Counted from the first letter of the stretch, positions 2,935 to 25,618 are shown. The stretch is DNA of 25,618 nt from an uncultured Methanosarcinales archaeon (GCA_964521145.1 CAZFPU010000004.1:1-25618), one strand, 5' to 3'. Translations and numbers: made by a program. Notes: generated from the sequence alone by a model not told the origin.

Positions 2935-3085
2935 TAAAGGCTATTGTATTTAGGCCGGGCCAGAGATGCCCGGCTACTTATTAATCAATATCCTAGTGCA
3001 ATGGAACGCCAAAAAAGCTATTGAACGAAACACCGTGCACTAAGATAGCAACAAAATGGATTCCGCGCGCACTAAATATCCTAGT
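2935..3085. repeat. Palindromic intergenic repeat family, copy 1 (composite)
   Basis: TATTTAG (2947) is followed by the stem gccgggc/gcccggc (2954-2974) and TATCCTAGTGCAA (2989-3001). Inverted motif copies TGCACTAAGATA (3036-3047) and GCACTAAATATC (3069-3080). Confidence 0.75.
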
Positions 3086-3120
3086 TTTTAAATTTCTCAA
3101 AAGCCTCACTCATCCAAATT

Positions 3121-5295
3121 CTAAGATAAACTACTCGTCAAGATGCCCGCTGCAACATAGTTGAAGATCAGCATCACGATCAATGATATCATGCAATAGA
3201 GTATCGTGCTCTTGATTAAATTCTTTCCTAACAAATATCGCTCATTGAGCTTGTCTGACCCGTTTTCAATGCCATTGACCAGGATGGTAAGTATATACGT
3301 GATCTGCACCACATAGATCCCAACGATGATCTGGAAGTAAAAAGTAGGGATGCCATCACCAAACAAACCGACCAAGCCTACCTGCTGCCCGGCCGCTGAT
3401 GCGCCTTCGGTCACCACCTGCAGTTGGCTTCCTAGTTTCCCTAAGATAGTCGTTACCATTGAGGTTATGCCAATCACAATGCCCGCGATCGCAGGGGTCA
3501 AGAATTTTATCTGCGAATTCATAGAGGATATAATGTCGGCCATCAGATCCCTAAGGCGCTCATTGACAGAATGGATCTCTTTTATGTATCGGCTTACATT
3601 GGTTAAGGCCTGGGCTGCGATATAAGGCCCTTTCTTCACGCTCTGAACCAATACCTTCATCGAGCTCTCGATCAGGCTAGAGGGATAATGGACGAGTGCC
3701 CCATGTTCGGGATCAAAGATGGCTTTTTGTACACTCAGCCCCAGTCTTCTGATGTTCGTATTTACCAGGCGAAAGAAGCTGCCAGAGATCGTCCCTTCCA
3801 TAACATTAGCAACCTTCTCAAATGCTATCTCGGCAGGAAGCCCATCTCCTAATCTATTCCCTAGTTGAAATAGCGCGCCTGCGAACTCCATCTCAAGTTT
3901 TTTTCCACGTTCACGGATCTCGATTATGTTTTTTGAGCGCAGCGAAAAATAGAGTCCAAATCCAAGCCCAAGGCCCAGGGTGACTCCAAGGCTTAATATT
4001 CCCGCGCCAAGACCAAAGGGGCCTATCTCCTCTTGAGTTGTTTGGCTGATCTTATAGCCAAGCAGGCAGAATTTACCTTTACACATGACATCCTTATCAT
4101 CGATGCCAAAGGGGATATCGGGAAATCCTATCTTATGCAAGATGAGCGGGCTAAAACCGATCAATAGAAGCACAAACCCAATGATGAGGCAGAAATACAA
4201 TGGGTTCATCGCAACTTCTGACTTCCCTATCTTGAAAAGGATGTTCTTGTACTTCTTGAGCTCTGGATTTTCTTCTGAGATATCGGTCTGCCCATAGCCC
4301 GTTGGCCTTCGAGAGAGCACATCTCTTCCAATAAAATAGACTGAAAGCGGCAAAGCGACATTATAGAGCGCGGCAATGTGATACCACTGCACGCCATCCA
4401 TGAAGCTGACGACAAGTGGGAGGATCACCAGCCCTAAAATGGGCAAGATGACCCCAAGCATGTGAAGCATGGTGATCGGGCTCTGCAAATTATGCGCGTA
4501 GTGCAACATCTTCTCATAGGTCTCGCTTAAGATCACATCAAGCGCCTTATCAAGAGTGGAAAGTCTTCGCTCTTCACTACCTTCATACAATGAGCCCTCG
4601 ACCAGGTGAAAGCTTTCAATGAACTCAAAGTTCCATTTTTTCCATGTCTCAAGATACATATCAACGCTTTCTTTGAGGCTGTCATACTTGTTGGTCTCGA
4701 CATCCCAAAGCACTTTTTTAAGATCCATGCTTAAAGGAGGCGCAAGATGATCAGCTGCAAATTCAAGAGCGTTCTCGAGATTCGATGTATGGCGCATATA
4801 GGTGACCACATAAAAGATGCATAATACCATCTGGTTGCTTGCCCTCATGCGCCAATTGTTTGCAAAGGATGCTGGAATGCCCCCCAATGGCTTAATGAGT
4901 ATAAGTCCTGATAGGAAACAGAATACAATGAGAAACGTGGATTGGGTTAGTAGATACGTAAGCAAAGACCCGAAGACTATTACTACCAGCGGAGCAAGAT
5001 ATGATAAAGAAACAACTCCCGTTGGAGTCACATTAAGATGGGCGATGTTGATGTGCTCAATGAGCTCCGCTTCCTTTTTCTTTCCAGGCCTAATGTTTAG
5101 TATCTTCTCGCTTAGGTTGCATATCTTCTCATAGAAGGTCATATGCAAAGGCATTAGCTCTTGCCTAAACTGCTGGTATTCTAGCGAAGAAGAAGCCTTT
5201 GGCTTGTAATTGACATCTCCTAATTCCTTCTCAATCTGCTTGCGATAATACGCGACAAGATCGCGTATCTGCGCACGTTCATCGACTGGTGGCAT
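3121..5295 (-). CDS. Type IV filament/T2SS-F inner membrane platform protein (TadB/TadC- or ArlJ-like, two T2SS-F domains)
   Basis: 724 aa polytopic membrane protein with two T2SS-F-like blocks (QMVLCIFYVVTYMRHTSNLENALEFAA; EFAGALFQLGNRLGDGLPAEIAFEKVA). GAGGT RBS. Downstream of and co-oriented with a VirB11-like ATPase. Confidence 0.85.
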   Translation of the reverse strand: MPPVDERAQIRDLVAYYRKQIEKELGDVNYKPKASSSLEYQQFRQELMPLHMTFYEKICNLSEKILNIRPGKKKEAELIEHINIAHLNVTPTGVVSLSYLAPLVVIVFGSLLTYLLTQSTFLIVFCFLSGLILIKPLGGIPASFANNWRMRASNQMVLCIFYVVTYMRHTSNLENALEFAADHLAPPLSMDLKKVLWDVETNKYDSLKESVDMYLETWKKWNFEFIESFHLVEGSLYEGSEERRLSTLDKALDVILSETYEKMLHYAHNLQSPITMLHMLGVILPILGLVILPLVVSFMDGVQWYHIAALYNVALPLSVYFIGRDVLSRRPTGYGQTDISEENPELKKYKNILFKIGKSEVAMNPLYFCLIIGFVLLLIGFSPLILHKIGFPDIPFGIDDKDVMCKGKFCLLGYKISQTTQEEIGPFGLGAGILSLGVTLGLGLGFGLYFSLRSKNIIEIRERGKKLEMEFAGALFQLGNRLGDGLPAEIAFEKVANVMEGTISGSFFRLVNTNIRRLGLSVQKAIFDPEHGALVHYPSSLIESSMKVLVQSVKKGPYIAAQALTNVSRYIKEIHSVNERLRDLMADIISSMNSQIKFLTPAIAGIVIGITSMVTTILGKLGSQLQVVTEGASAAGQQVGLVGLFGDGIPTFYFQIIVGIYVVQITYILTILVNGIENGSDKLNERYLLGKNLIKSTILYCMISLIVMLIFNYVAAGILTSSLS

Positions 5296-5389
5296 TGACC
5301 TCTTTTTTTAATGATTTGAAATGATTGTGAAAGTTAATAATTTTAGTGAAACAGTATCTTGATTTTTTGGATCTTTGTTTTTTGATTTT

Positions 5390-5490
5390 GAAAAGCTGCC
5401 ATCTACGCCGCACCAACTGCTAGGCAACTCACTTCGTTCGTTGCGGCGTGCGTGCGGCTTCTTATAATGCCCATATCTTAGTGCAATGGT
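5390..5490. repeat. Palindromic intergenic repeat family, copy 2
   Basis: GAAAAGC...ATCTAC, an inverted repeat acgccgca/tgcggcgt (5405-5412/5442-5449) and ATATCTTAGTGCAA (5473-5486). Its reverse complement shares TTGCACTAAGATAT-N6-TATAAGAAGCCGCAC with 11617-11651. Confidence 0.8.
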
Positions 5491-5505
5491 ATTTTTTAAA
5501 TTGGG

Positions 5506-6435
5506 TTATGATTTTTTCTTACGACTTTTTGAATGGCTCCTAGTTTTTGATGGATTAGATTGTTTTTGACCCATAGGCATTGCGTCTCGTATGCGCGCAC
5601 GAATGCCATGGGCTACATGCAGTATTTCCTCGAATTGAATGCCTTTTTTGGGATCGCTTCGATCTCTCCATAACACAACGAATGTATCCACGCTGTTGAG
5701 CACTTCTCGCAGTTGCGCTAGGCTTTCTTCGTGGGATATCCAATCTATATTTTCTCTCTGCAAGGTATCGAGCAGATTATTAACTCGATGCAGGGTTCGA
5801 TGGAATGCTTCTACCAACAGCTCTTCTCTTCTTAAATCAATCACGTACAGATGATGCTGGTAATCATAGAAATTAGGAATTTCATGCAAGAGATTGGAAA
5901 TCTGCTTATATGCAATGCTAAGGCGATTCCACTCCTGCTCACCAAGCGCATGCGAGGTTTTAGCGACATGAAGGATATGCTCAAAATCTCTTCGCACGAT
6001 GTAGAGATCTTCGCGGACAGCATGCGAGATCCCTTCAAGGGATATCTTGTGCATTTGCCGAATAGCCACGTCCTGATAGCGCGATACCAATCGTGCCATG
6101 AAAAGAGCAAACAAGAACAGACCACCGAAGCTTTCCAGCGCCGCAAAGGCACGCGAGAGTCCCTGTGGCACGATATCCCCATAACCTGTGTTCGTCGCTG
6201 TAATGACGCTATAATACAAGCTGTTTAAGAGCCTACCCTCCAAAGAAAAACTATCGATCGAAGTGGGCCCATTGCCGGGGCTGTAACTTAACAGGGTGTA
6301 TATCAATGCAAATAAGCATGCGTTTGCCAGCCATAATACAAAAATGGTTTTATAGGAGAATTTGTCGATCCAGTCCATGAGATCGCGCTTTTTGCGCAGG
6401 GGTAGCCAGCTGCCGTTGTCATTTGTTGCAGTCAT
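5506..6435 (-). CDS. Potassium channel family protein (2TM pore plus helical C-terminal cytoplasmic domain)
   Basis: TM1 (TIFVLWLANACLFALIYTLL), pore helix and filter (SLYYSVITATNTGYGDIVP), TM2 (RAFAALESFGGLFLFALFMARLV). The start may be at the second Met (MDWIDKF). Confidence 0.88.
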   Translation of the reverse strand: MTATNDNGSWLPLRKKRDLMDWIDKFSYKTIFVLWLANACLFALIYTLLSYSPGNGPTSIDSFSLEGRLLNSLYYSVITATNTGYGDIVPQGLSRAFAALESFGGLFLFALFMARLVSRYQDVAIRQMHKISLEGISHAVREDLYIVRRDFEHILHVAKTSHALGEQEWNRLSIAYKQISNLLHEIPNFYDYQHHLYVIDLRREELLVEAFHRTLHRVNNLLDTLQRENIDWISHEESLAQLREVLNSVDTFVVLWRDRSDPKKGIQFEEILHVAHGIRARIRDAMPMGQKQSNPSKTRSHSKSRKKKS

Positions 6436-6645
6436 TGTTTTGTTGTTTCAGGAAATGTTTTTAATTCCTCATATTTGTTCGCAATTATGCTGATACGACC
6501 GACTCGGCATTTATTTCCTATTGGTTGGATCGTTACTTGCATTGTTTGAGGAAATCGGGACAAAAGACCAATGATGTCTTTTATGCAGTCGCGGAGATTT
6601 TCCGTTTGACATTTTTTATTAAAAGATGAGTCGAAAATTTTGCTC

Positions 6646-8970
6646 CTACTTCATCCTGCTTCTTCCTTCCACGCTAAAGGTCTGCTTCTTGACAGTCCTT
6701 CTGAGCCATTCGTTCCAATCAAAAAATATGCGCTTGCTATCGAGCGAGCCCACTTCATCCTTTACTGACTCAGATAGCTTGTGGAATTGGTCGTTTGCCT
6801 GCACCACGAATTCCGCTTCAAGAAGATCAAGGTTATTTGTTTTATGCGCAACCTCCACCAATGTTTCCTTCAGTTTGGCCCGAAGGGTGATATTATCCCA
6901 TACGGCATCCCAGCTGCCAGACCATTCCTTGACGTTGCCTGCTATTGATTTTAGGATGTCACTCTCGCCATTGATAAGTTCATCGGTTGGTTCGATTGAA
7001 TCCGTTTCTGTCTTGTATTTCATCAGGTCGACAAAGCCATTTTCTAGGAGAGGATCATCCTCCCAGAGCTTTCGAACCTCGGTTATTTGCGTCACTCTTC
7101 TCCACCTATGTAATCCATCGGCGCTTCGAACAGGATTTGCGACAATGATGATGTCAGTTGCCTTGAAGCTGGTTCTTGGGACCCCTAAGTCATTGACGAC
7201 ACGATCAAAGACACCATACGGGCTATCACCGTGGATCGTGCCTGCGACCACATTGGCAAGTGCCCCGACTCTCATCGCCTCATACAATGCCAAAGCTTCC
7301 TTGCTTCTGATCTCTCCAACAATCAATGCGCTATCGCCCAAACGAAGCGTGGTTCGAATCCCTTCATCGGCAGGAACTTCAGAGCTTGATTTGCTCAAAG
7401 CAGATGAGACTTTCATCGGCTGGATGTTGTATCCTAATTTTCGAAGCTCATTGGTTGGCAATTCCAAGGTATCCTCAATAGTAATAACCCTATATTTTCG
7501 CATCAGTTCGACAAGCAATGCGCTGAGTACTGAAGTCTTTCCAGCGCTTCTTGTTCCCGCAACGAGCATGGTTCTTGCACCATCGACGATGAAGCTCATG
7601 AGGCCCGCGGCCAGCGGAGTTATCATCTGCGAATGGATAAATAAGGGTAAGGTCCATGGCTTATCCCGATGCCTTCTTAGAGCAAACGCAAGCCCATAGG
7701 GGTTCAGTGGAGGCCCAACGGCGGCAACTCTCGCGTTCGCGCCATCAAGGATCAGTTCGGTATCTAAGATAGGATTTGCTTCATCGAGTGGTCTTCCAGA
7801 AACCAATCTTAATTTCGTCGCCCATGAATCCGCTTCCGCTCTTGTTGGGATTATGTTTGTCCTGCAGTCCGCATATTCGGAATGCACAAGGAATGCGGGA
7901 ACGTCGCCCATCTGGTTGTTGATAGAGATGTCCTGTACTTTTTCATCCTGCAACAGTACCTCGATTAGTCCAAAGCCAACAGTGTATCTAACCAGGATCG
8001 TTGTCAACTGCTCAAGCTCCGCTTCCTTGAGTTTTATTCCCCTATACGAAGCAAGTTCCTCTATGAGATCTTCCCCTACATTATAGAATACCTGTCTCAT
8101 GCGCTCAGGCTCGACAAACTCGCTTTTCTTTGGCTCATGCTCTGCCATGATATTTCTTGCAGTGTCTAGGATCTCATACTTTTCCTCGGTGAGCTTGAAT
8201 TCTGGGGGAACGACATGATAGAGATATTGGACCGTGTCAGGAAGCTCAAAAATAGTGACATCGACATCCTTTCCAACCGTATATCGCTCAAGCTCCCGTG
8301 CATCATGGGGAAAAGAGGCCATGAGCTTGGTGAACATGAAATCAGGGCGAACCATCGCCGAGAATAATCTTCGATAGAGATCCCTGCTTCCTACCTTATA
8401 TCCTGCTATGTCTTGCTTGACTATGTTTATGATCCTGGTCTTGTCAAGCAATTGTACCATATATTGCAGGATGCTCAGGTATTTTTGCAGGCATTCGCGA
8501 AATTGAGCATCAGAACTTCTATCTAGAATGATTCGCTCATCTCTCTCGAGACGGATAAGCTCCACATACGCGCCGATAGGGTCTGAGCGAAGCAGGTTTG
8601 AGATGATATTCTGGATGGTCGCATACCAAGTGTTTGCCCATCTGCTGCATTTCATGTCCGCAAGCAGCGCACCATAGTTGAATGAGTCCCTTCTTTTGGT
8701 GAGCTGCTCATAGACCATGGCAATCTCTCGAAGATAGGTTGTCTGCGCATAATCATACTCGTAGTTCCTCTTCTGCAGGAAAACTATCTTGGATGCGTCC
8801 TTGACTTCCAGGATCATGTCGCATACCTTTGACATCACCACCGCATCATCCTCTAATGAAGGCACTTTGGGATACTGCTCGAGGTTTACCGATAGGATGA
8901 CATCATCGCCTTCCCGAAGTACTTCGAAGGAGAATGGCTTGTCGCTTGCTTTTCTGTCAAATAGTGCCAT
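6646..8970 (-). CDS. VirB11/TadA/ArlI-family type II/IV secretion ATPase with long N-terminal extension
   Basis: Walker A (AGTRSAGKT), Asp box (ITIEDTLEL), Walker B (LIVGEIRS), His-box remnant (AGTIHGDS), and the conserved GFGLIEVLLQDEKVQDISIN and SGRPLDEANPILD segments. Confidence 0.93.
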   Translation of the reverse strand: MALFDRKASDKPFSFEVLREGDDVILSVNLEQYPKVPSLEDDAVVMSKVCDMILEVKDASKIVFLQKRNYEYDYAQTTYLREIAMVYEQLTKRRDSFNYGALLADMKCSRWANTWYATIQNIISNLLRSDPIGAYVELIRLERDERIILDRSSDAQFRECLQKYLSILQYMVQLLDKTRIINIVKQDIAGYKVGSRDLYRRLFSAMVRPDFMFTKLMASFPHDARELERYTVGKDVDVTIFELPDTVQYLYHVVPPEFKLTEEKYEILDTARNIMAEHEPKKSEFVEPERMRQVFYNVGEDLIEELASYRGIKLKEAELEQLTTILVRYTVGFGLIEVLLQDEKVQDISINNQMGDVPAFLVHSEYADCRTNIIPTRAEADSWATKLRLVSGRPLDEANPILDTELILDGANARVAAVGPPLNPYGLAFALRRHRDKPWTLPLFIHSQMITPLAAGLMSFIVDGARTMLVAGTRSAGKTSVLSALLVELMRKYRVITIEDTLELPTNELRKLGYNIQPMKVSSALSKSSSEVPADEGIRTTLRLGDSALIVGEIRSKEALALYEAMRVGALANVVAGTIHGDSPYGVFDRVVNDLGVPRTSFKATDIIIVANPVRSADGLHRWRRVTQITEVRKLWEDDPLLENGFVDLMKYKTETDSIEPTDELINGESDILKSIAGNVKEWSGSWDAVWDNITLRAKLKETLVEVAHKTNNLDLLEAEFVVQANDQFHKLSESVKDEVGSLDSKRIFFDWNEWLRRTVKKQTFSVEGRSRMK

Positions 8971-9310
8971 GGTCTGTTGGTTTTGTTGCTATTGCTTGAT
9001 TTTTATTTATTAATTAGCTTTGGATTGTTTTTTTTCTGTTATCATTGGTTTTTTATTGTTGATTTTTATTTTAAATTTTGAGATCCTTTATTTGTTTGGT
9101 TGCCATTGGTTGGTTTATTGGGTCTTTGTAGTTATGATGCACTGGTTTTTTGTCGTTTTGAATTTTTTTGTTTTTGCCCTCTACGATGCCTTATTTTCAA
9201 TGTTGAAATGGTTTATTGTTCGCTTGTCATTGGTTTTGTCGTATTGGGTCGTTGGTTTTTGGGTCTTTGTAGTTATGATGTATGATTTTTTCGCACTCTG
9301 TTTCCATTTT

Positions 9311-9377
9311 TCAAAGGCGAGGATATCTAGGCGCTCCCAATGCGTCGCGCATTGATTTTGTTGAGATCTTAGTGCAA
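9311..9377. repeat. Palindromic intergenic repeat family, copy 3
   Basis: TCAAAGGCGAGGATATCTAGGCG, the hairpin caatgcg-tcg-cgcattg (9338-9354), then GATCTTAGTGCAA. Aligns along its length with 11505-11571. Confidence 0.8.
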
Positions 9378-9489
9378 GAGTACTGTTGAATGGTTTTATC
9401 ATCATTACCACTAGTAAACCAACTCCTAGTTTTGCTATGATTTAATCTTAATGAAGATAATGGATTGTGCGAATAGATAGCCTTAGAAT

Positions 9490-9633
9490 TCATTTTGGTC
9501 CTCGTTTTCTCAAAAGATCGAGGGCGATCTCGATGAGATGTGATTTGTTTCGGTAGCGGTATCGATCATGTACTTCATGCTCGATCCACTTGATAAGCTC
9601 CTCGTCGATCGTTGCTGAGATTGGCTTTTTCAT
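9490..9633 (-). CDS. Ribbon-helix-helix (CopG/MetJ/Arc-type) transcriptional regulator, 47 aa
   Basis: MKKPISATIDEELIKWIEHEVHDRYRYRNKSHLIEIALDLLRK shows a beta strand, helix A, a YRNKS turn and helix B. The true start is the ATG at 9633; the longer ORF-track extension runs through the promoter. Confidence 0.85.
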   Translation of the reverse strand: MKKPISATIDEELIKWIEHEVHDRYRYRNKSHLIEIALDLLRKRGPK

Positions 9634-9695
9634 CGAATATATTATAAAATATATTTTGAATATTTTTAAATAAAGTATATATTTTATATTATGAT

Positions 9696-9708
9696 TATAT
9701 AAAGCTTT
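9696..9708 (-). promoter_or_regulatory. BRE/TATA promoter for the RHH gene
   Basis: Minus strand AAAGC-TTTATATA about 60 nt upstream of the ATG at 9633. Confidence 0.5.
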
Positions 9709-9711
9709 GTA

Positions 9712-9875
9712 TCGGCTGAAAAACAAGGCAGCAATCTGGTGATGAACCAGATAGTTCAGTATATTCACAGCCAGCTGTTGTTCCCAGTCACCCTCGGGGT
9801 CGAGCGCCGCCGACACGAGCTTGCGAGTGTCTTGGCATTCGCGAGTGCCCCTTTGTGCCGGCTGCGATCAGCCGA
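9712..9875. other. GC-rich multi-hairpin element between divergent promoters (candidate ncRNA or non-autonomous element)
   Basis: Stems at 9734-9752, 9790-9800, 9812-9831, 9834-9849 and 9859-9874. An 8-bp inverted repeat TCGGCTGA (9712-9719)/TCAGCCGA (9868-9875) bounds the region. Confidence 0.4.
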
Positions 9876-9915
9876 AATAAAAAGACTTATTAATCATGGC
9901 ATCTAGAATCAGATC

Positions 9916-10389
9916 ATGGACCCGCCACCACCAATGATGCAGCCGCCTGTGCCTGAGAAAAAGAAGGGCACGATCACGCTTTTTCAGAGCAAGAAGCCCA
10001 TCATGCCCGATATTTCTGGCATAACAGAAGATGTAAGCAACGTGAGCCGAAGGCTTCGGATTCTTGAAGAGAGCTTCTCGAACATGCGTAAGGCCCTTCA
10101 GGTGACCGAAGATAACATGCTCAATAAGAACAAGTCAAATTCCACCGAGATTCGCACCATAACCTCAGATATATCGGAGATGAAAAAAGAGATGCATGAA
10201 GTGAAAGAGCGCATCTTTGAATTGGTGAAGGAGCTGCAAGACACTGCTAAAAAAGGGGATGTGAAGGTGCTTGAGAAATACATCAATCTTTGGAATCCGG
10301 TGAAATTCGTCACGCAAAATGAGATCGAGCAGATAGTGCGTGAGATCATCGATAAACGAGAAAAGATGAAGAATTTGGAGCAGCCTTAG
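9916..10389 (+). CDS. Coiled-coil hypothetical protein with Pro-rich N-terminus
   Basis: Heptad-rich core (VSNVSRRLRILEESFSNMRK...MKKEMHEVKERIFELVKEL) ending in LEKYINLWNPVKFVTQNEIEQIV. TATA-like AAAAGACTTATTAA near 9880. Confidence 0.85.
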   Translation: MDPPPPMMQPPVPEKKKGTITLFQSKKPIMPDISGITEDVSNVSRRLRILEESFSNMRKALQVTEDNMLNKNKSNSTEIRTITSDISEMKKEMHEVKERIFELVKELQDTAKKGDVKVLEKYINLWNPVKFVTQNEIEQIVREIIDKREKMKNLEQP

Positions 10390-10510
10390 GTTCTGATTGG
10401 TTTATTCTTAGAAGTTGTGTTCTAAATCTCGCTTGTGCTCGGAGTAACGTTTTATCATCAGCCCTCACAAAGTCTGACACAGGATAACCGAATACTTGGT
10501 CACTATAATT

Positions 10511-10582
10511 ATGCGATGCCGCAGCGCAATGGAGTCTAGAAGCGAAGGCATCGCACTAAATATTGCCCAAGGCGTTTTGAAA
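10511..10582. repeat. Palindromic intergenic repeat family, copy 4 (inverted)
   Basis: A 9-bp inverted repeat tgcgatgcc/ggcatcgca (10512-10520/10547-10555) abuts GCACTAAATAT (10553-10563) and CGTTTTGA. On the minus strand this reads TCAAAACG...ATATTTAG followed by the hairpin. Confidence 0.6.
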
Positions 10583-10669
10583 CTTTTCTAATGCATCAAA
10601 AAACTCATGCTCGACCTTTGTGGCGCTGCCTTCATTAGAACAAACTTCTCTCCAAAAAAATAAGGAAAA

Positions 10670-11389
10670 TTATTCCATCCCCGGCCGTCTTGGTAATCCA
10701 GCAGGTTTTGTTGGAGTCTCGGGGCTTTTTGAGAGCCGCTCTAATTTGTTCACGTTCTCAGTTAACGAAGGCAGGATCTTTTGGAATACTTTTTCCATCG
10801 CCTTGATCTCGGTTCCCACATCGACTATGTTTCTATCGTATTCTGAGATCTTGTTGAGAAGGTTCTTGTGCAGCGCGCCAAGACTGGTGTTTAGGTCCTG
10901 CACCTGCTGCGAGAGCTGTGTAAGTTTTGAGTCGCTCTGCTCTTTCCAGGCGATTATCTTTCTTAGGTCATCTTCAAATTCTTTCCATTTCTCATCTATG
11001 ATGGCTTCCGCGATCTCTTCGATAAGCTCCCGATTGCTCACCTGATTCTGTTCAGGGGCCACAGGTGGCGGCTCAGGAAAATTCTGAGAGGAAGGCATGG
11101 TCATGGTACTATCTTGCATGTAGCCTGGCATCTCATATTGAGGAGGCGCCTGCATCTGCATTTGCATTTGAGGTTGGGCCATCATGGGCGCCTGCATCTG
11201 CACCTGATTGAGCGCATCATAGATCTGAGAAGAGTTAAATCCCTGGCGCTGCAGCTCGAGAACGATCGTGTTGGTATCGAGGCCCTGGCGCTGCATGACC
11301 ATTATCTGCTCCATTGGACTTCCCGGCGCTGAAGACTGGGGCGCAGCTGAACCTTTCTTTTGTTTCTTTCCAAAACTGAAGAGAGCCAT
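10670..11389 (-). CDS. Hypothetical protein: small helical domain, Q/M/P-rich linker, C-terminal coiled coil
   Basis: QRQGLDTNTIVLELQRQGFNSSQIYDAL domain, low-complexity QMQAP repeats, and the coil ELIEEIAEAIIDEKWKEF...EKVFQKILPSLTENVNKL. GAGGT RBS and TATA at 11424-11431. Confidence 0.85.
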   Translation of the reverse strand: MALFSFGKKQKKGSAAPQSSAPGSPMEQIMVMQRQGLDTNTIVLELQRQGFNSSQIYDALNQVQMQAPMMAQPQMQMQMQAPPQYEMPGYMQDSTMTMPSSQNFPEPPPVAPEQNQVSNRELIEEIAEAIIDEKWKEFEDDLRKIIAWKEQSDSKLTQLSQQVQDLNTSLGALHKNLLNKISEYDRNIVDVGTEIKAMEKVFQKILPSLTENVNKLERLSKSPETPTKPAGLPRRPGME

Positions 11390-11423
11390 GTAAACCTCTT
11401 TTTGTCAATTTCATTGAAGTTCG

Positions 11424-11437
11424 TATATAAACGTTTC
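11424..11437 (-). promoter_or_regulatory. BRE/TATA promoter for the 10670-11389 gene
   Basis: Minus strand GAAACG-TTTATATA about 35 nt upstream of the ATG. Confidence 0.55.
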
Positions 11438-11504
11438 TAAAATGAGGAGTTTTGGTAATAAAGTCGAATAAATTGAATTATTTTGGAAAAATAGCGGGCG
11501 AATT

Positions 11505-11685
11505 GAAAAAGCGAGGATATTTAGTCGGCCCCAATGCGGCCGGCATCGATACTATGGATATCTTAGTGCAATAGGTTAGTTTGCATTGCGCTTTAAAGAA
11601 AAATCAAAGGCACTCCTTGCACTAAGATATCCACCATATAAGAAGCCGCACACATTGGTGCGGCCTAGATAACACGCGTTTTGTC
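11505..11685. repeat. Palindromic intergenic repeat family, copies 5a/5b (inverted pair)
   Basis: Perfect 16-bp inverted repeat GGATATCTTAGTGCAA (11556-11571)/TTGCACTAAGATATCC (11617-11632). Each arm extends to an AAAAGCG/AAAACGCG...TATYTAG flank with a GC hairpin (11526-11542; 11645-11664). Confidence 0.85.
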
Positions 11686-11733
11686 ATCGTTAAATTATAG
11701 AGTAAGAACTGAACAGAACTCAAACGACATATC

Positions 11734-12249
11734 TCACATGCTCTTCGAAGCAAGCAGCGCAACGGTGAATACTGCTATCAAGAAAAACAAGATCAGACCA
11801 ATGAAGTTGGGATGGAAGATGACTGAACTTGTCTTCTCAAAGCTCTCTTCTCCTGGCTCAGGGATATCGATCTTATCGCGAACCTGCGCAAGCGTGCCAA
11901 CAACGAGCGCGATGACCAATATCACGAGAGCGATCCATTTGAGGCTATCAATTGATTGAGGGACATGCCCCTGGCCACCCATCATGCTGCCGGCAACTAC
12001 GGAGATTATTATAGCGAAGACAAGAAGCACAACAAAGACCGGAGCTATGCTGCTTATGATATCTGTAGCCATCTGAGACATCGCAACAAAGATAGCCAGG
12101 ATAACGGCGATCATCCAGATGAAGAGTTGATTGCCCTTGAACATATTGGCTGCATACATGAACGCAGCGGCCAATACCAGCACGAAAAGAAAAACGAAAA
12201 TAGCAGAGAATGGAGATAAGGTAGTTGATAGGTCGAGGAACGTGGCCAT
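11734..12249 (-). CDS. Polytopic membrane protein, paralog 3 of tandem triplet
   Basis: About 5 hydrophobic segments; 2 nt from the upstream paralog's stop; AIFVFLFVLVL...NMFKGNQLFIWMIAVILAIFV aligns with the other two paralogs. Confidence 0.85.
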   Translation of the reverse strand: MATFLDLSTTLSPFSAIFVFLFVLVLAAAFMYAANMFKGNQLFIWMIAVILAIFVAMSQMATDIISSIAPVFVVLLVFAIIISVVAGSMMGGQGHVPQSIDSLKWIALVILVIALVVGTLAQVRDKIDIPEPGEESFEKTSSVIFHPNFIGLILFFLIAVFTVALLASKSM

Positions 12250-12251
12250 AC

Positions 12252-12848
12252 TTAGTGCCTTCCGCCGCCACCGCCACCAAACAGCCTATGTGCATAAATT
12301 CCGGCTCTCTCCATTCCTTGTCTATCACTATCAGACCCAGTTATGAAAGCTATAATGATGCCAAATATCAAGATCATTATGACTATAGTGATCGCATCAG
12401 ACCCAAAGATTCCTTCAAGAAAACCCATGAATGTTGGTGCCCACCAGCCAGCAGCAGAGCCAAAGATAAAAATAATGGTGACAATGCAGACAAATGCGAT
12501 CCAGCCAGGAGCCGCGAGCCCCAAGAAGATTTTGTCATGGGCAAACACCCCAAGCAAGATGAGCAGTGCCATGACTGCAACTACCAAAAGAGAAACCTGC
12601 GGCAAAGCCTTCTTTAAGATCTCAAAGGGATCTTGCGTTGGTGGCAAATACGCTGTGAAATGAACGAATAAAACGACCAAGGAAAAAAGAAGCGAAAATC
12701 CGACATTGAGATTTTTTTTAGATTCTCCAAGGACCTTGGTCTTCTCAAGGACCGCAAAGAGTATAGTGAAGATAAGAAGGAAGATCAGCATATCTACGAT
12801 TTGGAATCTTTCCAATTCCCGAATGATTTCGCCAAATTCTATTGCCAC
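12252..12848 (-). CDS. Polytopic membrane protein, paralog 2 of tandem triplet (GTG start)
   Basis: IFLLIFTILFAVLEKTKVLGESKKNLNVGFSLLFSL motif; GGTGA RBS before the GTG; Gly-rich tail. Confidence 0.87.
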   Translation of the reverse strand: MAIEFGEIIRELERFQIVDMLIFLLIFTILFAVLEKTKVLGESKKNLNVGFSLLFSLVVLFVHFTAYLPPTQDPFEILKKALPQVSLLVVAVMALLILLGVFAHDKIFLGLAAPGWIAFVCIVTIIFIFGSAAGWWAPTFMGFLEGIFGSDAITIVIMILIFGIIIAFITGSDSDRQGMERAGIYAHRLFGGGGGGRH

Positions 12849-12937
12849 TCTATCACCTTTTCCATATTTTTCTTCTTGTTGTTTTTAAACTTTACTGATT
12901 GATATGTTTTATGTTTGTTATTGTGTTTGATAATAAC

Positions 12938-13027
12938 AATCAAAAGCGAAGATATTTAGGCGCCGCCATTGCGCGGCGCAATGATTGCGGCCCGCATTGG
13001 GGCCGCCTAGATAACACGCTTTTGATT
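12938..13027. repeat. Palindromic intergenic repeat family, copy 6 (90-bp head-to-head palindrome)
   Basis: AATCAAAAGCG (12938-12948) pairs perfectly with CGCTTTTGATT (13017-13027). Internal stems cattgcg/cgcaatg (12967-12983) and gcggccc/gggccgc (12987-13006). Confidence 0.85.
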
Positions 13028-13063: not shown

Positions 13064-13621
13064 TCAATGATTATGATCATCACTCTTCGAGTTCTTGCCC
13101 CTATCTTGGGTTATCCAGACGATGAAGAGCACTAACAAGATGAACAGAATAGCAGTTCCTACGATCTCTCCCTGGTTATGTCCCGAAACGAATCCAAAGG
13201 TATCATCGAGCCACCCAAGCGCATCGAGGAAGATGAAAAGCAATGCAACGAATACTATTACCATGAAGAGCGTCTTCCAGCCCCCAGTAAGATAGACCGC
13301 TTCTGGCTTTTCCTGGAAAAATGATCCAACGAGCAACAGGAAAAGTACTATCAAAAATAGCAATATCACGAATTTGGATGCGATCGAGGTGATGACCGCG
13401 ACCAACTGAGAGGATAAGACAACAAAAAAGGCGATCACAACAGCCGCAATCGTGTTGAGATTCTTCTTTGGCCATTTCTTGCCATCGATTTCTTCCATCC
13501 CAAACACTTTGGTTCTCTCAAGAAGCGCAAAAACAATGGTAAATACCAGAAGGAAAGGCAAAATTACGTCATAAAAGCCCAAATTTACGAGAAAATCCAG
13601 GATGTTTCTAAATTGCGACAT
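13064..13621 (-). CDS. Polytopic membrane protein, paralog 1 of tandem triplet
   Basis: YDVILPFLLVFTIVFALLERTKVFG...KKNLNTIAAVVIAFFVV motif. Start moved to MSQFRN (13621) because a TATA box lies at 13649-13656, inside the ORF-track extension. Confidence 0.87.
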   Translation of the reverse strand: MSQFRNILDFLVNLGFYDVILPFLLVFTIVFALLERTKVFGMEEIDGKKWPKKNLNTIAAVVIAFFVVLSSQLVAVITSIASKFVILLFLIVLFLLLVGSFFQEKPEAVYLTGGWKTLFMVIVFVALLFIFLDALGWLDDTFGFVSGHNQGEIVGTAILFILLVLFIVWITQDRGKNSKSDDHNH

Positions 13622-13662: not shown

Positions 13663-13756
13663 TAAATGGGAAGACAGCGTTCGAAATGTAGATTAGCGGG
13701 CTTAAGGTCGAGCATATCAATTCTTCCAGATCCATTGAAAATTCATGGAATTTTCA

Positions 13757-13909
13757 GGGTGCTGAAAATCCGCTGATTTTCTAGCACAATCGACAAGGAG
13801 GAAGTCCCATCGGGGGAACCAAGAAAATCCGGGATTTTCGGGGTGCCAAAATGCCGGGCATAGCAGGAAAATCCGGGATTTTCTGGCTCCCGGAATTTCT
13901 TTAATTCCG
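13757..13909. repeat. Cluster of GAAAATC-N3-4-GATTTTC palindromes (second repeat family)
   Basis: GAAAATCCGCTGATTTTC (13764-13781), two identical GAAAATCCGGGATTTTC (13823-13839, 13867-13883), and CGGAATT-TCTTT-AATTCCG (13891-13909). Confidence 0.85.
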
Positions 13910-14038
13910 AGGATTTAGCATGTCGGTTATTGAAATAAACATTGAATACTAGAAGCCCGCTAATCCGAGTGATAGCGAGATTTTGAACACTGCCGCTCCA
14001 ATAAAAACTTTTAAATACTAACGAACAGGAGGCCAATC

Positions 14039-18430: not shown

Positions 18431-19570
18431 ATGACCTTAGGGAGGATGGAGCCGGCAATGCAGGTAATGCACATGGATTATACACATCCCAAAGGGACAC
18501 AGTCAAGACAGCAGAGCAAGACAGCCGATATAGATGCGGAACTTGAGAAGCTCGTTGCGACCCAGAAGGCCACGATCAAAGTAGTTGGCTGCGGTGGTGG
18601 CGGAAACAATACTATCCAAAGGATTTCTGAAGTAGGTATCATTGGAGCAGAAACCGTTGCCATAAATACCGATGCCCAAGATCTTCTATATACCAATTCT
18701 GATCATAAGATACTCATTGGAAAAGAGCTGACAAAAGGCCATGGCGCTGGTTCAGACCCAAGAGTTGGCGAAGAAGCGGCAAGAGAGCAGGAACAGGAGC
18801 TTAGAAAAGCGCTTGATCATGCAGATATGGTTTTTATAACCTGTGGACTTGGTGGCGGAACCGGAACAGGCAGCGCTCCAGTAGTTGCTGAAGCCGCCAA
18901 AAAAAATGGCGCCCTAACTGTCGCTATTGTCACATTGCCCTTTGCCATGGAAGGCCATAGAAGATATGAAAATGCGGTCATTGGTCTTGAAAAATTAGAG
19001 CAGATCGTTGACACACTCATCGTTATTCCCAATGAAAAATTGCTAGAGCTTGCCCCTGATCTTCCATTGCATACCGCGTTCAAGGTAGCAGATGAGATCC
19101 TGACCAATTCAGTAAAAGGCATTGCAGAATTAGTTACGAAAGCAGGTCTTGTCAATCTTGATTTTGCCGATATCCGGGCAGTCATGCGCGGTGGCGGTGT
19201 TGCTTTAATTGGCGTTGGCGAGTCTGATTCTGAAAATCGGGCAGTCGAAGCTGTTGAGAAAGCAATAAACAATCCGCTGCTTGATGTAGATATCTCAGGG
19301 GCCAATGGCGCTCTTATTAACGTGGTTGGCGGCAATGACCTAACCCTTGATGAAGCAAGGCAGGTTGTTGAAACCATATCAAAAAAACTAGATCCTGAAG
19401 CCAGAATAATCTGGGGAGCCCAATTAAGTGAGGACATGGGAGCGACTTTGCGAGTAATGCTCATAGTAACCGGCGTAAAAAGCGCGCAGATATTGGGAGC
19501 GGGCATAAAACCAAGAAACAAGGAAGCGCAGGAAATGAAATCACAATTAGGAATAGATTTTCTTGACTAA
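18431..19570 (+). CDS. ftsZ: Cell division protein FtsZ (FtsZ1-type by neighbourhood)
   Basis: IKVVGCGGGGNN, AINTDAQ, the tubulin signature GLGGGTGTG, and GLVNLDFADIR. The exact start is uncertain (several Met codons in the first 15 codons). Confidence 0.97.
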   Translation: MTLGRMEPAMQVMHMDYTHPKGTQSRQQSKTADIDAELEKLVATQKATIKVVGCGGGGNNTIQRISEVGIIGAETVAINTDAQDLLYTNSDHKILIGKELTKGHGAGSDPRVGEEAAREQEQELRKALDHADMVFITCGLGGGTGTGSAPVVAEAAKKNGALTVAIVTLPFAMEGHRRYENAVIGLEKLEQIVDTLIVIPNEKLLELAPDLPLHTAFKVADEILTNSVKGIAELVTKAGLVNLDFADIRAVMRGGGVALIGVGESDSENRAVEAVEKAINNPLLDVDISGANGALINVVGGNDLTLDEARQVVETISKKLDPEARIIWGAQLSEDMGATLRVMLIVTGVKSAQILGAGIKPRNKEAQEMKSQLGIDFLD

Positions 19571-19585
19571 AAAAAGAGGGAGATT

Positions 19586-19765
19586 ATGTGGACACGATTT
19601 AAGGGATTTTTAGGAGAATGTGTTAGAGTTTTGAAGGTGACGAAGAAACCGACGAAAGTAGAGTTCATGACCATTGTGAAAGTTGCAGGTCTTGGTATCC
19701 TGATCATTGGATTGCTTGGGTTTAGCATCACGATGCTTAAGGAAGTCATTATGCATTACAGGTAA
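19586..19765 (+). CDS. secE: Protein translocase subunit SecE/Sec61-gamma, 59 aa (not in ORF track)
   Basis: Translated by hand: MWTRFKGFLGECVRVLKVTKKPTKVEFMTIVKVAGLGILIIGLLGFSITMLKEVIMHYR. RVLKVTKKP and a single TM; GAGGGAG RBS; directly after ftsZ. Confidence 0.95.
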   Translation: MWTRFKGFLGECVRVLKVTKKPTKVEFMTIVKVAGLGILIIGLLGFSITMLKEVIMHYR

Positions 19766-19788
19766 AAGTCTAGTGAAGGTGAAATAAG

Positions 19789-20322
19789 ATGGTTGGGTTT
19801 AGAAGAAAGAAAAAAGATGCGCCAGAGATTGTTGAAAGAGACTGGGAGTTTTCCAATGACCAGATGCAGACATTTGAAGATTTGCACAACGCAGTCGTGG
19901 CGCAGTTGGCTGAAGATAGAAAAGAATTTCTTGAGGATCAGCAGCTAGAGAAGCTGATGCAAACAGCCAAAAACGAGTTTCATGAATTAAGCGAAGGCCT
20001 TGCGCAAGTCCAAAAATTTCTTGTGAAGGAAAGAGAAATCAACAGCGGAACCAATTTGTCGCGCATCCAAAGAGCTCCTGAGCTAGAGAACTTAAGGAAA
20101 CAGATCAAGCTTACCGAAGAGAGGGCAAGGGAGTTGACTCTTAACCTAAGGAGCAAGGTAGAGTACATCGAAAAAATGGCTGCGCAGATTGCGGATCAGA
20201 AAATGAAGGATAAAAAAGTTGAACAGTATCTTACTGACACAGTCGATAGGATACGAACAAAGCTTGGGGAAGTTGAACGAGATATCCTCAACACTCAACC
20301 GGAAGAAAAGATAGTATCATGA
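19789..20322 (+). CDS. Coiled-coil hypothetical protein
   Basis: 177 aa, E/K/Q-rich heptads, GGTGA RBS, 23 nt after secE. Confidence 0.8.
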   Translation: MVGFRRKKKDAPEIVERDWEFSNDQMQTFEDLHNAVVAQLAEDRKEFLEDQQLEKLMQTAKNEFHELSEGLAQVQKFLVKEREINSGTNLSRIQRAPELENLRKQIKLTEERARELTLNLRSKVEYIEKMAAQIADQKMKDKKVEQYLTDTVDRIRTKLGEVERDILNTQPEEKIVS

Positions 20323-25085: not shown

Positions 25086-25618
25086 ATGGCAACACAAAGC
25101 GTCGAAACTCTTGTAGCAGGCGGAAAGGCAACTGCAGCCCCCCCATTAGGTCCGGCCCTAGGACCATTAGGAGTAAATATCGGTCAGGTTGTCATGGAGA
25201 TAAACAAGAAGACCGCTGTGTTCAATGGCATGCAGGTGCCTGTCAAGGTAAAAGTCGATACTGATACCAAGGCATTCACGATCGAAGTGGGAACACCACC
25301 GGCATCATCTCTTATTCTTAAGGAAGCGGCTGTAGAAAAAGGCTCTGGCGCTCCAAATACCGACAAAGTCGCTGATATTAGAATCGAGCAGCTAATCAAG
25401 GTCGCAAAAATGAAATTTGACAATCTTCTAGGCAAGGACTTAAAGCAAAAGATCAAGGAAATTGCTGGTACCTGCCAATCAATGGGAATCCTCATCAATG
25501 GAAAGCCAGCTCCTGAAACTATAGCAGACATCAATTCCGGAAAATACGATAAAGAGATTAAGGATGAGAAGACCGAACTTACCGCTGCTGAACTAAAAGA
25601 GCTCGAAGAAGAGAAGAA
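25086..25618 (+). CDS. rpl11: 50S ribosomal protein L11 (uL11), 3'-truncated by window end (not in ORF track)
   Basis: Translated by hand: MATQSVETLVAGGKATAAPPLGPALGPLGVNIGQVV...GTPPASSLI...EIAGTCQSMGILI...SGKYD. No stop before the window end. Confidence 0.97.
   Translation, partial: MATQSVETLVAGGKATAAPPLGPALGPLGVNIGQVVMEINKKTAVFNGMQVPVKVKVDTDTKAFTIEVGTPPASSLILKEAAVEKGSGAPNTDKVADIRIEQLIKVAKMKFDNLLGKDLKQKIKEIAGTCQSMGILINGKPAPETIADINSGKYDKEIKDEKTELTAAELKELEEEK

What the first reader, a model, noticed from the sequence alone, without database searches (positions are those of the whole stretch)
2935..13027. Family of dispersed palindromic elements with conserved flanks and covarying stems in the pilus region
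Seen: six spacers (about 2935-3085, 5390-5490, 9311-9377, 10511-10582, 11505-11685, 12938-13027) carry one architecture: (T)CAAAAGCG-N2-4-TATYTAG, then a GC-rich hairpin, often followed by ATCTTAGTGCAA. The hairpin sequence differs between copies but pairing is kept: gccgcac-acattg-gtgcggc at 11645 versus gcggccc-gcattg-gggccgc at 12987, both followed by CTAGATAACACGC. Units occur singly, tail-to-tail (perfect 16-bp inverted repeat at 11556/11617) and head-to-head (90-bp palindrome at 12938). By eye I found no intergenic copy right of 13.1 kb. Known: REP elements and IS200/IS605 ends pair a hairpin with an adjacent short motif recognised by HUH tyrosine transposases. Inference: an undescribed archaeal REP/MITE-like family, or a structured RNA or operator that segments this locus. 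No transposase gene is in the window.
Basis: partly seen in the sequence, partly recalled or inferred. Interest (0 to 1): 0.72.

Follow-up and report, generated by a model that had tools for sequence, protein, structure and literature searches.

The report
Dispersed palindromic repeat family in Woesearchaeota
The spacers of this archaeal pilus locus hold copies of a short, many-copy palindromic DNA repeat that resembles bacterial REP/REPIN elements; the copies sit where genes have been inverted, and the repeat is not a regulator specific to this locus.

Summary
Nine units in six spacers (2.9-13.0 kb) share one plan. A head (CAAAAGCG) is followed by N3 and a tag (ATATYTAG). Then comes a GC-rich hairpin whose stem differs between copies but whose loop is conserved (CCAATGCG). 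About 14 nt further on is a tail (ATATCTTAGTGCAA). Three sites are inverted doublets and three are single units.

The window comes from a groundwater Woesearchaeota (DPANN) archaeon. In assemblies of the source metagenomes, summed contig depth rises from single-copy (4-10x) to 35-120x exactly over the units. The extra depth comes from 8-16 contigs per run with unrelated flanks. So this is a dispersed family with tens of copies, not a device of this locus.

Only 2 of 9 related genomes carry related elements, and the orthologous spacers elsewhere are 36-66 nt and empty. Between those two genomes the element interior is inverted and 92% identical, while the flanking genes are about 85% identical. 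In the window, one gene bracketed by inverted units is itself inverted.

Best reading: a REP/REPIN-like non-autonomous repeat. The enzyme that moves it is unknown. No transposase gene, RNA data or complete genome were available. The operator and locus-specific RNA readings are not supported.

The parts
2935..3004 (+). Unit A1. Degenerate head TTAAAGGC, tag GTATTTAG, hairpin GCCGGGC/GCCCGGC (2954-2974), tail ATATCCTAGTGCAA.
   Evidence: (covariance model 36.6 bits; this unit was in the seed)
3030..3092 (-). Unit A2, a degenerate partner of A1. Tag ATATTTAG (3072-3079 on the minus strand), no clean hairpin, tail ATCTTAGTGCAC (3035-3046).
   Evidence: 16.8 bits; not in the seed
5390..5489 (+). 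Unit B, a singlet. Head GAAAAGCT, tag CATCTAC, stem GCCGCAC (5407-5413) / GTGCGGC (5452-5458) with a 38-nt insertion in the loop, tail ATATCTTAGTGCAA (5473-5486). Stem and 3' linker (TTCTTATA) are the same as in E2.
   Evidence: 12.6 bits
9308..9380 (+). Unit C, a singlet. Head TCAAAGGCG, tag ATATCTAG (9323-9330). Hairpin GCGC...GCGC, or alternatively CAATGCG/CGCATTG. Loop motif CCAATGCG (9337-9344), tail AGATCTTAGTGCAA.
   Evidence: depth 5x rises to 110x over 9308-9379
10494..10586 (-). Unit D, a singlet. Head CAAAACGCC (reverse complement of 10571-10579), tag ATATTTAG (10556-10563), 9-bp stem TGCGATGCC/GGCATCGCA (10512-10520 with 10547-10555), 26-nt loop holding CCATTGCG, no clear tail.
   Evidence: depth 10x rises to 122x over 10521-10567 at 90% identity or more
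11505..11577 (+). Unit E1. Head GAAAAAGCG, tag ATATTTAG (11517-11524), stem CGGCC/GGCCG, loop CCAATGC, tail ATATCTTAGTGCAA (11558-11571).
   Evidence: depth 7x rises to 49x over 11506-11577
11578..11613 (.). Single-copy spacer between the two tails of doublet E.
   Evidence: depth stays at baseline
11614..11686 (-). Unit E2. Head CAAAACGCG, tag TATCTAG, stem GCCGCAC/GTGCGGC (11645-11664), loop CAATGT, tail ATATCTTAGTGCAA (11617-11630 on the minus strand).
12938..12982 (+). Unit F1, without a tail. Head TCAAAAGCG, tag ATATTTAG, stem GCGCCGC/GCGGCGC (12960-12979), loop CATTGC.
12983..13027 (-). Unit F2, without a tail. Head TCAAAAGCG, tag TATCTAG, stem GCGGCCC/GGGCCGC (12987-13006), loop CAATGC. 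F1 plus F2 form a 90-nt palindrome, and the whole doublet recurs in other contigs.
   Evidence: z = -7.3; contigs covering 12942-13023 with 8 differences
10670..11440 (-). The 239-aa gene with its BRE/TATA promoter (TATA at 11424-11431). It is inverted relative to its conserved neighbours and bracketed by units D and E1 in inverted orientation, heads facing the gene.
   Evidence: (gene order in relatives)

Best explanation
The sites are copies of a dispersed, non-autonomous palindromic repeat family of a groundwater Woesearchaeota genome. They behave like bacterial REP singlets and REPIN/BIME doublets.

A unit is about 70-80 nt. It consists of a conserved head (CAAAAGCG), a YTAG tag abutting a 5-9 bp GC hairpin with a conserved CCAATGCG-type loop, and a conserved tail (ATATCTTAGTGCAA).

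Shown here:
- Units and whole doublets occur in many genomic contexts.
- Subfamilies differ by fully complementary stem changes.
- Elements are present or absent in orthologous spacers of relatives.
- Element interiors and one flanked gene have been inverted at the tag boundaries.

Inferred:
- Copies spread as DNA, most plausibly as folded single strands handled by a structure-specific enzyme encoded elsewhere. The YTAG at the hairpin foot would play the role of the REP GTAG. I put about 0.35 on an IS200-type Y1 HUH transposase being that enzyme.
- Inverted copies act as recombination substrates that remodel the locus.
- Any role at the RNA level, such as a 3'-end hairpin or terminator, would be secondary.
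For: Multi-copy, with unit-exact boundaries. Summed contig depth in three to four runs rises from 4-10x to 35-120x:
- over E1 and E2 but not over their spacer;
- over D;
- over the F doublet;
- over C.
In the single-element stretches, 8-16 contigs per run were laid. Their flanks disagree (loose-end agreement about 0.6). Their depths (2-12x in most cases) track that of the window contig across runs.

Position and arrangement. Nine of nine units lie in spacers, as three inverted doublets and three singlets.

Hairpins. They are significant against shuffles, and 4 of 7 stem pairs show compensatory changes.

Patchy distribution. Related tag-plus-hairpin elements occur only in L081 and L082 among nine relatives. 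Orthologous spacers in L078, L080, L081, L083 and L084 are 36-66 nt.

Recent copying.
- L081 12324-12410 and 5584-5670 are 95% identical over 87 nt, in inverted orientation.
- B and E2 share stem and linker.

Inversions bounded by the tags.
- The interior of the L081 element is the reverse complement of the L082 one: 140 of 152 identical, and 77 of the first 78. The flanks are colinear and about 85% identical.
- The window's 239-aa gene is orthologous to L081 7538-8182 (56% identity), is inverted relative to its neighbours, and is bracketed by inverted D and E1.

RIVAL RULED OUT. The promoter reading is excluded: real archaeal promoters (GAAAC[CG]TTTATAWA) sit between each element and the next gene.
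Against: - No complete genome was available. Copy number per genome is inferred from community contigs, which could partly come from co-resident relatives.
- No transposase lies in the window or in the gene lists of about 150 kb of relatives.
- RAYT-type Y1 subclasses were not seen in 172 archaeal genomes (PMC6006769).
- The tag is YTAG or CTAC, not GTAG.
- The long conserved non-palindromic head and tail, and the conserved loop, are unusual for REPs. They could equally reflect selection for a protein- or RNA-level function.
- The covariance model separates non-seed relatives (22-23.5 bits) only weakly from the best hit in 372 kb of unrelated DNA (20.7 bits).
- No excision or empty-site variants were seen within the population, though contigs hide rare variants.
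Confidence: 0.7

Rival explanations
1. The units are primarily RNA elements. They would be 3'-end hairpins acting as terminators or mRNA stabilisers, kept by selection after genes and only secondarily repeated.
For: - All elements lie after a stop codon and before the next gene's own promoter.
- Each of the three singlets (B, C, D) is oriented so that the transcript of an upstream gene would read hairpin, then CUAAAUAU, then a U4-5 run (CGCTTTTG) (read directly from the sequence).
- Doublets have A-tract and T-tract bases, like bidirectional terminators.
- Bacterial REPs are also often transcribed as 3' hairpins (PMC3733652).
Against: - The T run is separated from the hairpin by about 11 nt.
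- A T5 run already precedes F, directly after the stop at 13064.
- The spacer after the ATPase gene has no unit.
- Relatives manage with 36-66 nt spacers that hold no element.
- Sequence-identical heads and tails, and doublets copied whole, are not expected from convergent terminators.
- No RNA run exists to test this.
Confidence: 0.17
2. The inverted units are sites of a dedicated site-specific inversion system (invertons, phase variation) that switches pilus-locus genes.
For: - There are two independent inversions whose break points coincide with inverted tag/head repeats. One is the gene at 10670-11440 in the window. The other is the spacer interior directly upstream of the pilus membrane-protein gene in L081 versus L082.
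- That interior is more conserved (92-99%) than the neighbouring genes (85%).
Against: - The inversions are fixed differences between species.
- No opposite-strand joints were seen at these sites in four runs.
- No recombinase gene is in the locus.
- The promoters lie outside the inverted spacer segment.
- The family is dispersed far beyond this locus.
Confidence: 0.07
3. The units are operators for a DNA-binding regulator of this pilus cluster, such as the RHH protein at 9490-9633, and they segment the locus.
For: - The non-palindromic motifs are conserved, and six of eight spacers between 2.9 and 13.1 kb are occupied.
- No unit lies in the spacers to the right.
Against: - The RHH gene is conserved upstream of the ATPase in relatives that lack any element.
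- Many copies sit in unrelated contexts.
- The elements lie upstream of the promoters rather than over them.
Confidence: 0.03

Closest known systems
REP / REPIN / BIME elements of bacteria (GTAG-tagged REP superfamily; Bertels & Rainey 2011, PMC3116915; Di Nocera et al. 2013, PMC3733652)
   Same: - A short GC-rich hairpin carries an unpaired tetranucleotide tag at one foot.
- The elements are extragenic, mostly after genes.
- They occur as singlets and as inverted doublets that fold into long hairpins, and the doublet is copied as a unit.
- Subfamilies differ by complementary stem changes.
- Presence is patchy among close relatives.
   Different: - The host is an archaeon (DPANN).
- The tag is YTAG or CTAC rather than GTAG.
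- There are about 20 nt of conserved head and about 14 nt of conserved tail outside the palindrome, and the loop is conserved.
- No RAYT was found, and RAYT subclasses are unreported in archaea (PMC6006769).
- The apparent copy number is tens rather than hundreds.
PATEs and SMR-A repeats of Haloquadratum walsbyi (Dyall-Smith et al. 2011, PMC3119063)
   Same: - They are archaeal, transposase-free short mobile repeats with near-terminal palindromes.
- They make no target duplication.
- They differ between strains and occur as 'switch repeats' in opposite orientation at one position.
   Different: - PATEs lack inverted termini and derive from IS605-type ends.
- Here the doublets have inverted termini, and no IS605-type parent is known.
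- There is no sequence similarity.
IS200/IS605 ends recognised by the Y1 HUH transposase TnpA
   Same: - A subterminal hairpin has a short adjacent motif at its foot.
- No target duplication is made.
- This would explain why hairpin shape is kept while stem sequence varies.
   Different: - IS200/IS605 ends are not inverted repeats.
- No tnpA or tnpB gene was seen.
- Cleavage and guide sequences are not defined here.
MITEs
   Same: The doublets are small and non-coding and have imperfect terminal inverted repeats of 20 bp or more.
   Different: - No target-site duplication flanks A, E or F.
- Singlet units are common.
- No parent DDE transposon is known.

Membership tests
REP/REPIN (RAYT-associated) | A 20-40 nt GC-rich imperfect palindrome, extragenic. 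| tested here: met
   Seven of nine units have perfect 4-9 bp GC stems. All nine lie in spacers.
REP/REPIN (RAYT-associated) | A conserved unpaired GTAG (or CGTC) tetranucleotide at one end. | tested here: not met
   The tag is TTAG, CTAG or CTAC, directly 5' of the stem. It is analogous in position but is not GTAG or CGTC.
REP/REPIN (RAYT-associated) | Dispersed and multi-copy in one genome. | tested here: inconclusive
   In the single-element stretches, 8-16 contigs per run were laid, with different flanks and matching depth (for D). The window holds nine units. No closed genome was available to count copies per genome.
REP/REPIN (RAYT-associated) | Inverted doublets that form hairpins and act as the copied unit. 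| tested here: met
   A, E and F are inverted doublets. Contigs carry a whole F-like doublet, 12942-13023, with 8 differences.
REP/REPIN (RAYT-associated) | A single-copy RAYT gene flanked by the REPs. | not testable with these tools
   None is in the window or in the loci of relatives. The genome is not in the searchable collections.
PATE / IS200-IS605-derived | Near-terminal palindromes and no inverted termini. | tested here: not met
   Doublet ends are inverted repeats: head and tag against their reverse complement.
PATE / IS200-IS605-derived | Ends similar to a resident IS605-type transposon. | not testable with these tools
   No genome or IS copy was available.
MITE | Terminal inverted repeats plus a target-site duplication. 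| tested here: not met
   Inverted repeats are present, but no direct repeat flanks A, E or F (reading).
Intrinsic (hairpin plus U-tract) terminator | A U-tract directly 3' of a GC hairpin, with RNA 3' ends mapping there. | tested here: inconclusive
   The T4-5 run lies about 11 nt after the hairpin in single units. No RNA data exist.
Any Rfam RNA family | A match to a curated covariance model. | tested here: not met
   No match at E <= 1 in the whole window, and no tRNA.

The most novel reading that the evidence does not exclude
Woesearchaeota may carry a REPIN-like hairpin repeat system that spreads without a RAYT. An IS200-type Y1 enzyme or an unknown structure-specific enzyme would read the YTAG tag and the conserved CCAATGCG loop. 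Its inverted copies would drive recurrent inversions that rewire the pilus locus, which would be the first archaeal counterpart of REPIN/RAYT biology and possibly of inverton-like switching.
Probability: 0.12. Interest if true: 0.75.

Novelty: new variant of a known kind. Interest (0 to 1): 0.45.

Why it matters
DPANN archaea have very small genomes and are thought to carry little repetitive DNA. A family of tens of tagged hairpin repeats that turns over quickly between close relatives shows that such genomes are actively remodelled by miniature repeats. The repeats also coincide with gene and spacer inversions in a cell-surface (pilus) locus.

REP/RAYT systems are so far described only in bacteria. 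An archaeal analogue with a different tag and a conserved loop would give a new test case for two questions: how hairpin repeats are recognised and copied, and whether they are selfish or domesticated.

In practice, these repeats break short-read assemblies of such genomes exactly at the units.

Tried and rejected
- Exact composite pattern TTGCACTAAGAT-N30-40-CTARATA. It gave 17, 51 and 9 hits in the genome, metagenome and viral collections. On inspection all were chance matches with no GC hairpin and no head. The window's own genome is not in those collections.
- Exact look-up of the window ATPase. It is not on record.
- Rfam and tRNA scans found nothing.
- Promoter reading of the head and tag. 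I rejected it because real BRE/TATA promoters (GAAAC[CG]TTTATAWA) lie closer to each gene.
- Covariance model R1. It recovers its seeds and weakly recovers L081, L082, A2 and B. Its best hit in unrelated control DNA scores 20.7 bits, so it cannot by itself define distant members.
- Whole-unit folding energies are not exceptional for single units (z from +0.3 to -2.0). Only the doublet F (z = -7.3) and the position-specific stems are significant.
- A 151-nt contig in the freshwater run X7 is 98.6% identical to doublet E. I first read it as unusual conservation. At depth 2 and read length it is most likely a single sequenced fragment of a rare close strain (my inference), so it is uninformative.
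- Search for population-level inversion or deletion joints at D and E. None was credible. Joints such as 5448 to 11637 are other genomic copies.
- RNA runs: none.
- Literature on palindromic repeats in Woesearchaeota: none.
- I did not search for a Y1 transposase with a sequence written from memory. The listing cannot be restricted to this lineage.


Full report
**Source and gene context**

The window is archaeal.
- It encodes FtsZ, an FKBP26-type isomerase, an archaeal-type cytidylate kinase, Spt5/NusG, and a T2SSE/FlaI-like ATPase followed by a 724-aa membrane protein.
- The ATPase's nearest database relatives, at 70-78% amino-acid identity, are annotated Candidatus Woesearchaeota or Nanoarchaeota.
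- Near-identical DNA is held only in groundwater metagenome runs. One freshwater run holds a fragment.
- Genes carry their own archaeal promoters, GAAAC[CG]TTTATAWA, some 30-50 nt before the start codon.

**The observation**

Reading the sequence and orienting all sites the same way gives nine units in six spacers. The plan of a unit is:
- head, (T)CAAAAGCG;
- about 3 nt;
- tag, ATATYTAG;
- a GC-rich hairpin starting at the next base;
- a linker of about 14 nt;
- tail, ATATCTTAGTGCAA.

A (2935-3092), E (11505-11686) and F (12938-13027) are inverted doublets with heads outside. B, C and D are singlets.

The tail occurs four times exactly and twice with one mismatch. The head-plus-tag occurs three times with one mismatch or fewer. 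Repeat finding recovers the 68-nt and 37-nt families.

The hairpin stems are GCCGGGC, GCCGCAC (twice), GCGCCGC, GCGGCCC, CGGCC and TGCGATGCC, all perfectly paired. Shuffles of each GC-rich core rarely reach the same stem at the same position, 1-55 times in 5000 for five units. In a 6-unit alignment, 4 of 7 stem pairs show changes on both sides. The covariation score is 0.36 against 0.18 for shuffles, and 20 of 500 shuffles reach it. Two units are mis-registered by one base in that alignment, which dilutes the count.

Doublet F folds with z = -7.3. Single units as a whole are not thermodynamically exceptional.

No unit is found outside 2.9-13.0 kb, but the spacers on the right are mostly short.

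**The family is dispersed and multi-copy**

The large collections do not hold this genome, and the strict composite pattern gave only chance hits. The assemblies of the runs that do hold the window were informative instead.

I laid their contigs on short stretches and compared summed depth over the units with the single-copy baseline.

| Site | Region of raised depth | Baseline | Over the unit |
|---|---|---|---|
| E1 and E2 | 11506-11577 and 11614-11676 | 4-7x | 23-54x |
| Spacer of E | 11578-11613 | 4-7x | stays at baseline |
| D | 10521-10567, at 90% identity or more | 10x | 122x |
| F | 12942-13023 | 4-7x | 72x |
| C | 9308-9379 | 5x | 110x |

- In the single-element stretches (E, F, C), 8-16 contigs per run were laid. 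Their sequences beyond the unit disagree with one another.
- Their depths (2-12x in most cases) track the depth of the window's own contig in three runs.
- Some contigs carry an entire F-like doublet.
- Loose ends show further stem variants, such as CCCGCAC and GCCGCCC, behind the same ATATTTAG tag.
- The assemblies break at the units, as expected for repeats.

So the family has at least tens of copies in several subfamilies. It is almost certainly multi-copy in this genome. A closed genome is still needed for a per-genome count.

**Relatives**

I fetched nine syntenic loci through ATPase homologues.

- The gene order 182 / 197 / 167 aa, then 208-216 aa and about 145 aa on the opposite strand, then RHH, ATPase and a 722-aa protein is conserved in the six relatives whose fetched DNA covers that side (L078-L083).
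- Only L081 (GCA_016180235.1) and L082 (GCA_016184145.1), both about 41% GC, carry related elements. These are TATTTAG or CTAGATAA tags abutting GC hairpins with CAAT- or CATT-type loops, for example TATTTAG-GCGCCGC-caatacc-GCGGCGC. That stretch shares 16 of 16 bases with window F1.
- L080 and L083-L087 have none.
- L078 and one L082 spacer carry a different hairpin family, GTCAAAAACCAC...GTGGTTTTTGAC.
- Where elements are absent, the orthologous spacers are 36-66 nt and hold only the promoter.
- L081 also has an 87-nt copy, 95% identical and in inverted orientation, in a second spacer 6.7 kb away.

**Rearrangements at the elements**

1. Between L081 and L082, the roughly 150-200 nt element lying between the ATPase gene and the membrane-protein gene is inverted. 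Everything between TAG| and |CTAG is reverse-complemented: 140 of 152 bases are identical, and 77 of the first 78. The flanks are colinear at about 85% identity.
2. In the window, the 239-aa gene (10670-11389) with its promoter is the orthologue of L081 7538-8182 (56% identity). It points the other way relative to its conserved neighbours. It is bracketed by D and E1 in inverted orientation, with the heads facing the gene.
3. A K+ channel gene (5506-6435) is inserted between the ATPase and the membrane protein. It is followed by unit B. That spacer holds the composite element in L081 and L082.

No alternative orientation was seen within the sampled populations, but contigs hide rare variants.

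**Interpretation**

These properties match bacterial REP singlets and REPIN/BIME doublets in behaviour (PMC3116915, PMC3733652):
- a tagged GC hairpin;
- an extragenic position after genes;
- singlets plus inverted doublets, with the doublet copied whole;
- subfamilies with complementary stem changes;
- patchy distribution;
- association with rearrangements.

Several defining features are not met or not testable.
- The tag is YTAG, not GTAG.
- There are long conserved non-palindromic flanks and a conserved loop.
- No RAYT or other transposase was found in the window or the fetched loci.
- RAYT-type Y1 subclasses were not observed in archaea in a survey of 172 genomes (PMC6006769).

Archaeal transposase-free repeats are known in Haloquadratum (PATE, SMR, MITE; PMC3119063), but they differ in architecture. 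I therefore file this as a new variant of the kind 'miniature palindromic dispersed repeat'. It works like a REPIN, and membership in the REP/RAYT family is unproven.

A conserved hairpin shape, conserved loop and adjacent tag, combined with variable stem sequence, is what structure-specific recognition of folded single-stranded DNA would produce. That step, and the identity of the enzyme, are inference.

**Rivals**

- A primary RNA role (terminator or stabiliser) fits the position after stop codons and the orientation of the three singlets. It does not explain the copied heads, tails and doublets, or the element-free spacers of relatives, and it cannot be tested without RNA data.
- A dedicated inversion switch fits the two inversions. 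It lacks a recombinase, population heterogeneity and locus specificity.
- An RHH operator is contradicted by RHH conservation in element-free relatives and by the dispersed copies.
- Chance is excluded.

**Verdict**

Interest is moderate: this is a new repeat family in a lineage where none is described, with suggestive links to locus remodelling, but it belongs to a well-known general kind and its mechanism is unresolved.

Noticed in passing
window 9700-9885: A GC-rich non-coding stretch lies between the RHH gene and the 157-aa gene, just after an AT-rich promoter-like tract (9640-9700). It folds into a closed multi-stem structure at -69.2 kcal/mol, z = -4.2. It has no Rfam match and may be an undescribed ncRNA.
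   Followed up: partly
window 13740-13910 (inside the doubtful 97-aa ORF 13743-14036 on the minus strand): A tandem unit of about 44 nt has hairpins built on GAAAATCCGGGATTTTC. The fold is -65.6 kcal/mol, z = -3.9. There is no Pfam or Rfam match. It may be an ncRNA rather than a gene.
   Followed up: partly
window 8970-9310: The 340-nt spacer upstream of the ATPase gene is extremely T-rich and holds a direct repeat (9115-9150 and 9256-9291, 83% identity, 141 nt apart). Relative L078 has long A-rich low-complexity tracts at the same place.
   Followed up: no
window 5506-6435: A K+ channel gene (Ion_trans_2) is inserted between the pilus ATPase gene and the membrane-protein gene. These two genes are adjacent in all nine relatives.
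   Followed up: partly
L078 6035-6330; L082 60-165: A second, unrelated hairpin repeat family has GTCAAAAACCAC...GTGGTTTTTGAC ends that look like bidirectional terminators. Copies are clustered upstream of the 182-aa gene.
   Followed up: no
L082 8922-9849; L086 6041-6700: The tRNA-like region downstream of the 722-aa gene carries an insertion of about 700 nt. The insertion encodes a LAGLIDADG-type homing endonuclease (PF14528 in L086).
   Followed up: no
Proteins P0077, P0079, P0084, P0093: Some Woesearchaeota homologues of the pilus ATPase are about 1270 aa long and contain an intein with a LAGLIDADG domain (PF14528, PF14890).
   Followed up: no
window 19565-19795 and 25090-25190: Two stretches that the ORF list treats as spacers seem to hold unlisted short genes. 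One starts at an ATG near 19587 and reads as a possible small membrane protein. The other is the start of ribosomal protein L11 ([29 protein letters not shown]...). Both calls are by eye only.
   Followed up: no
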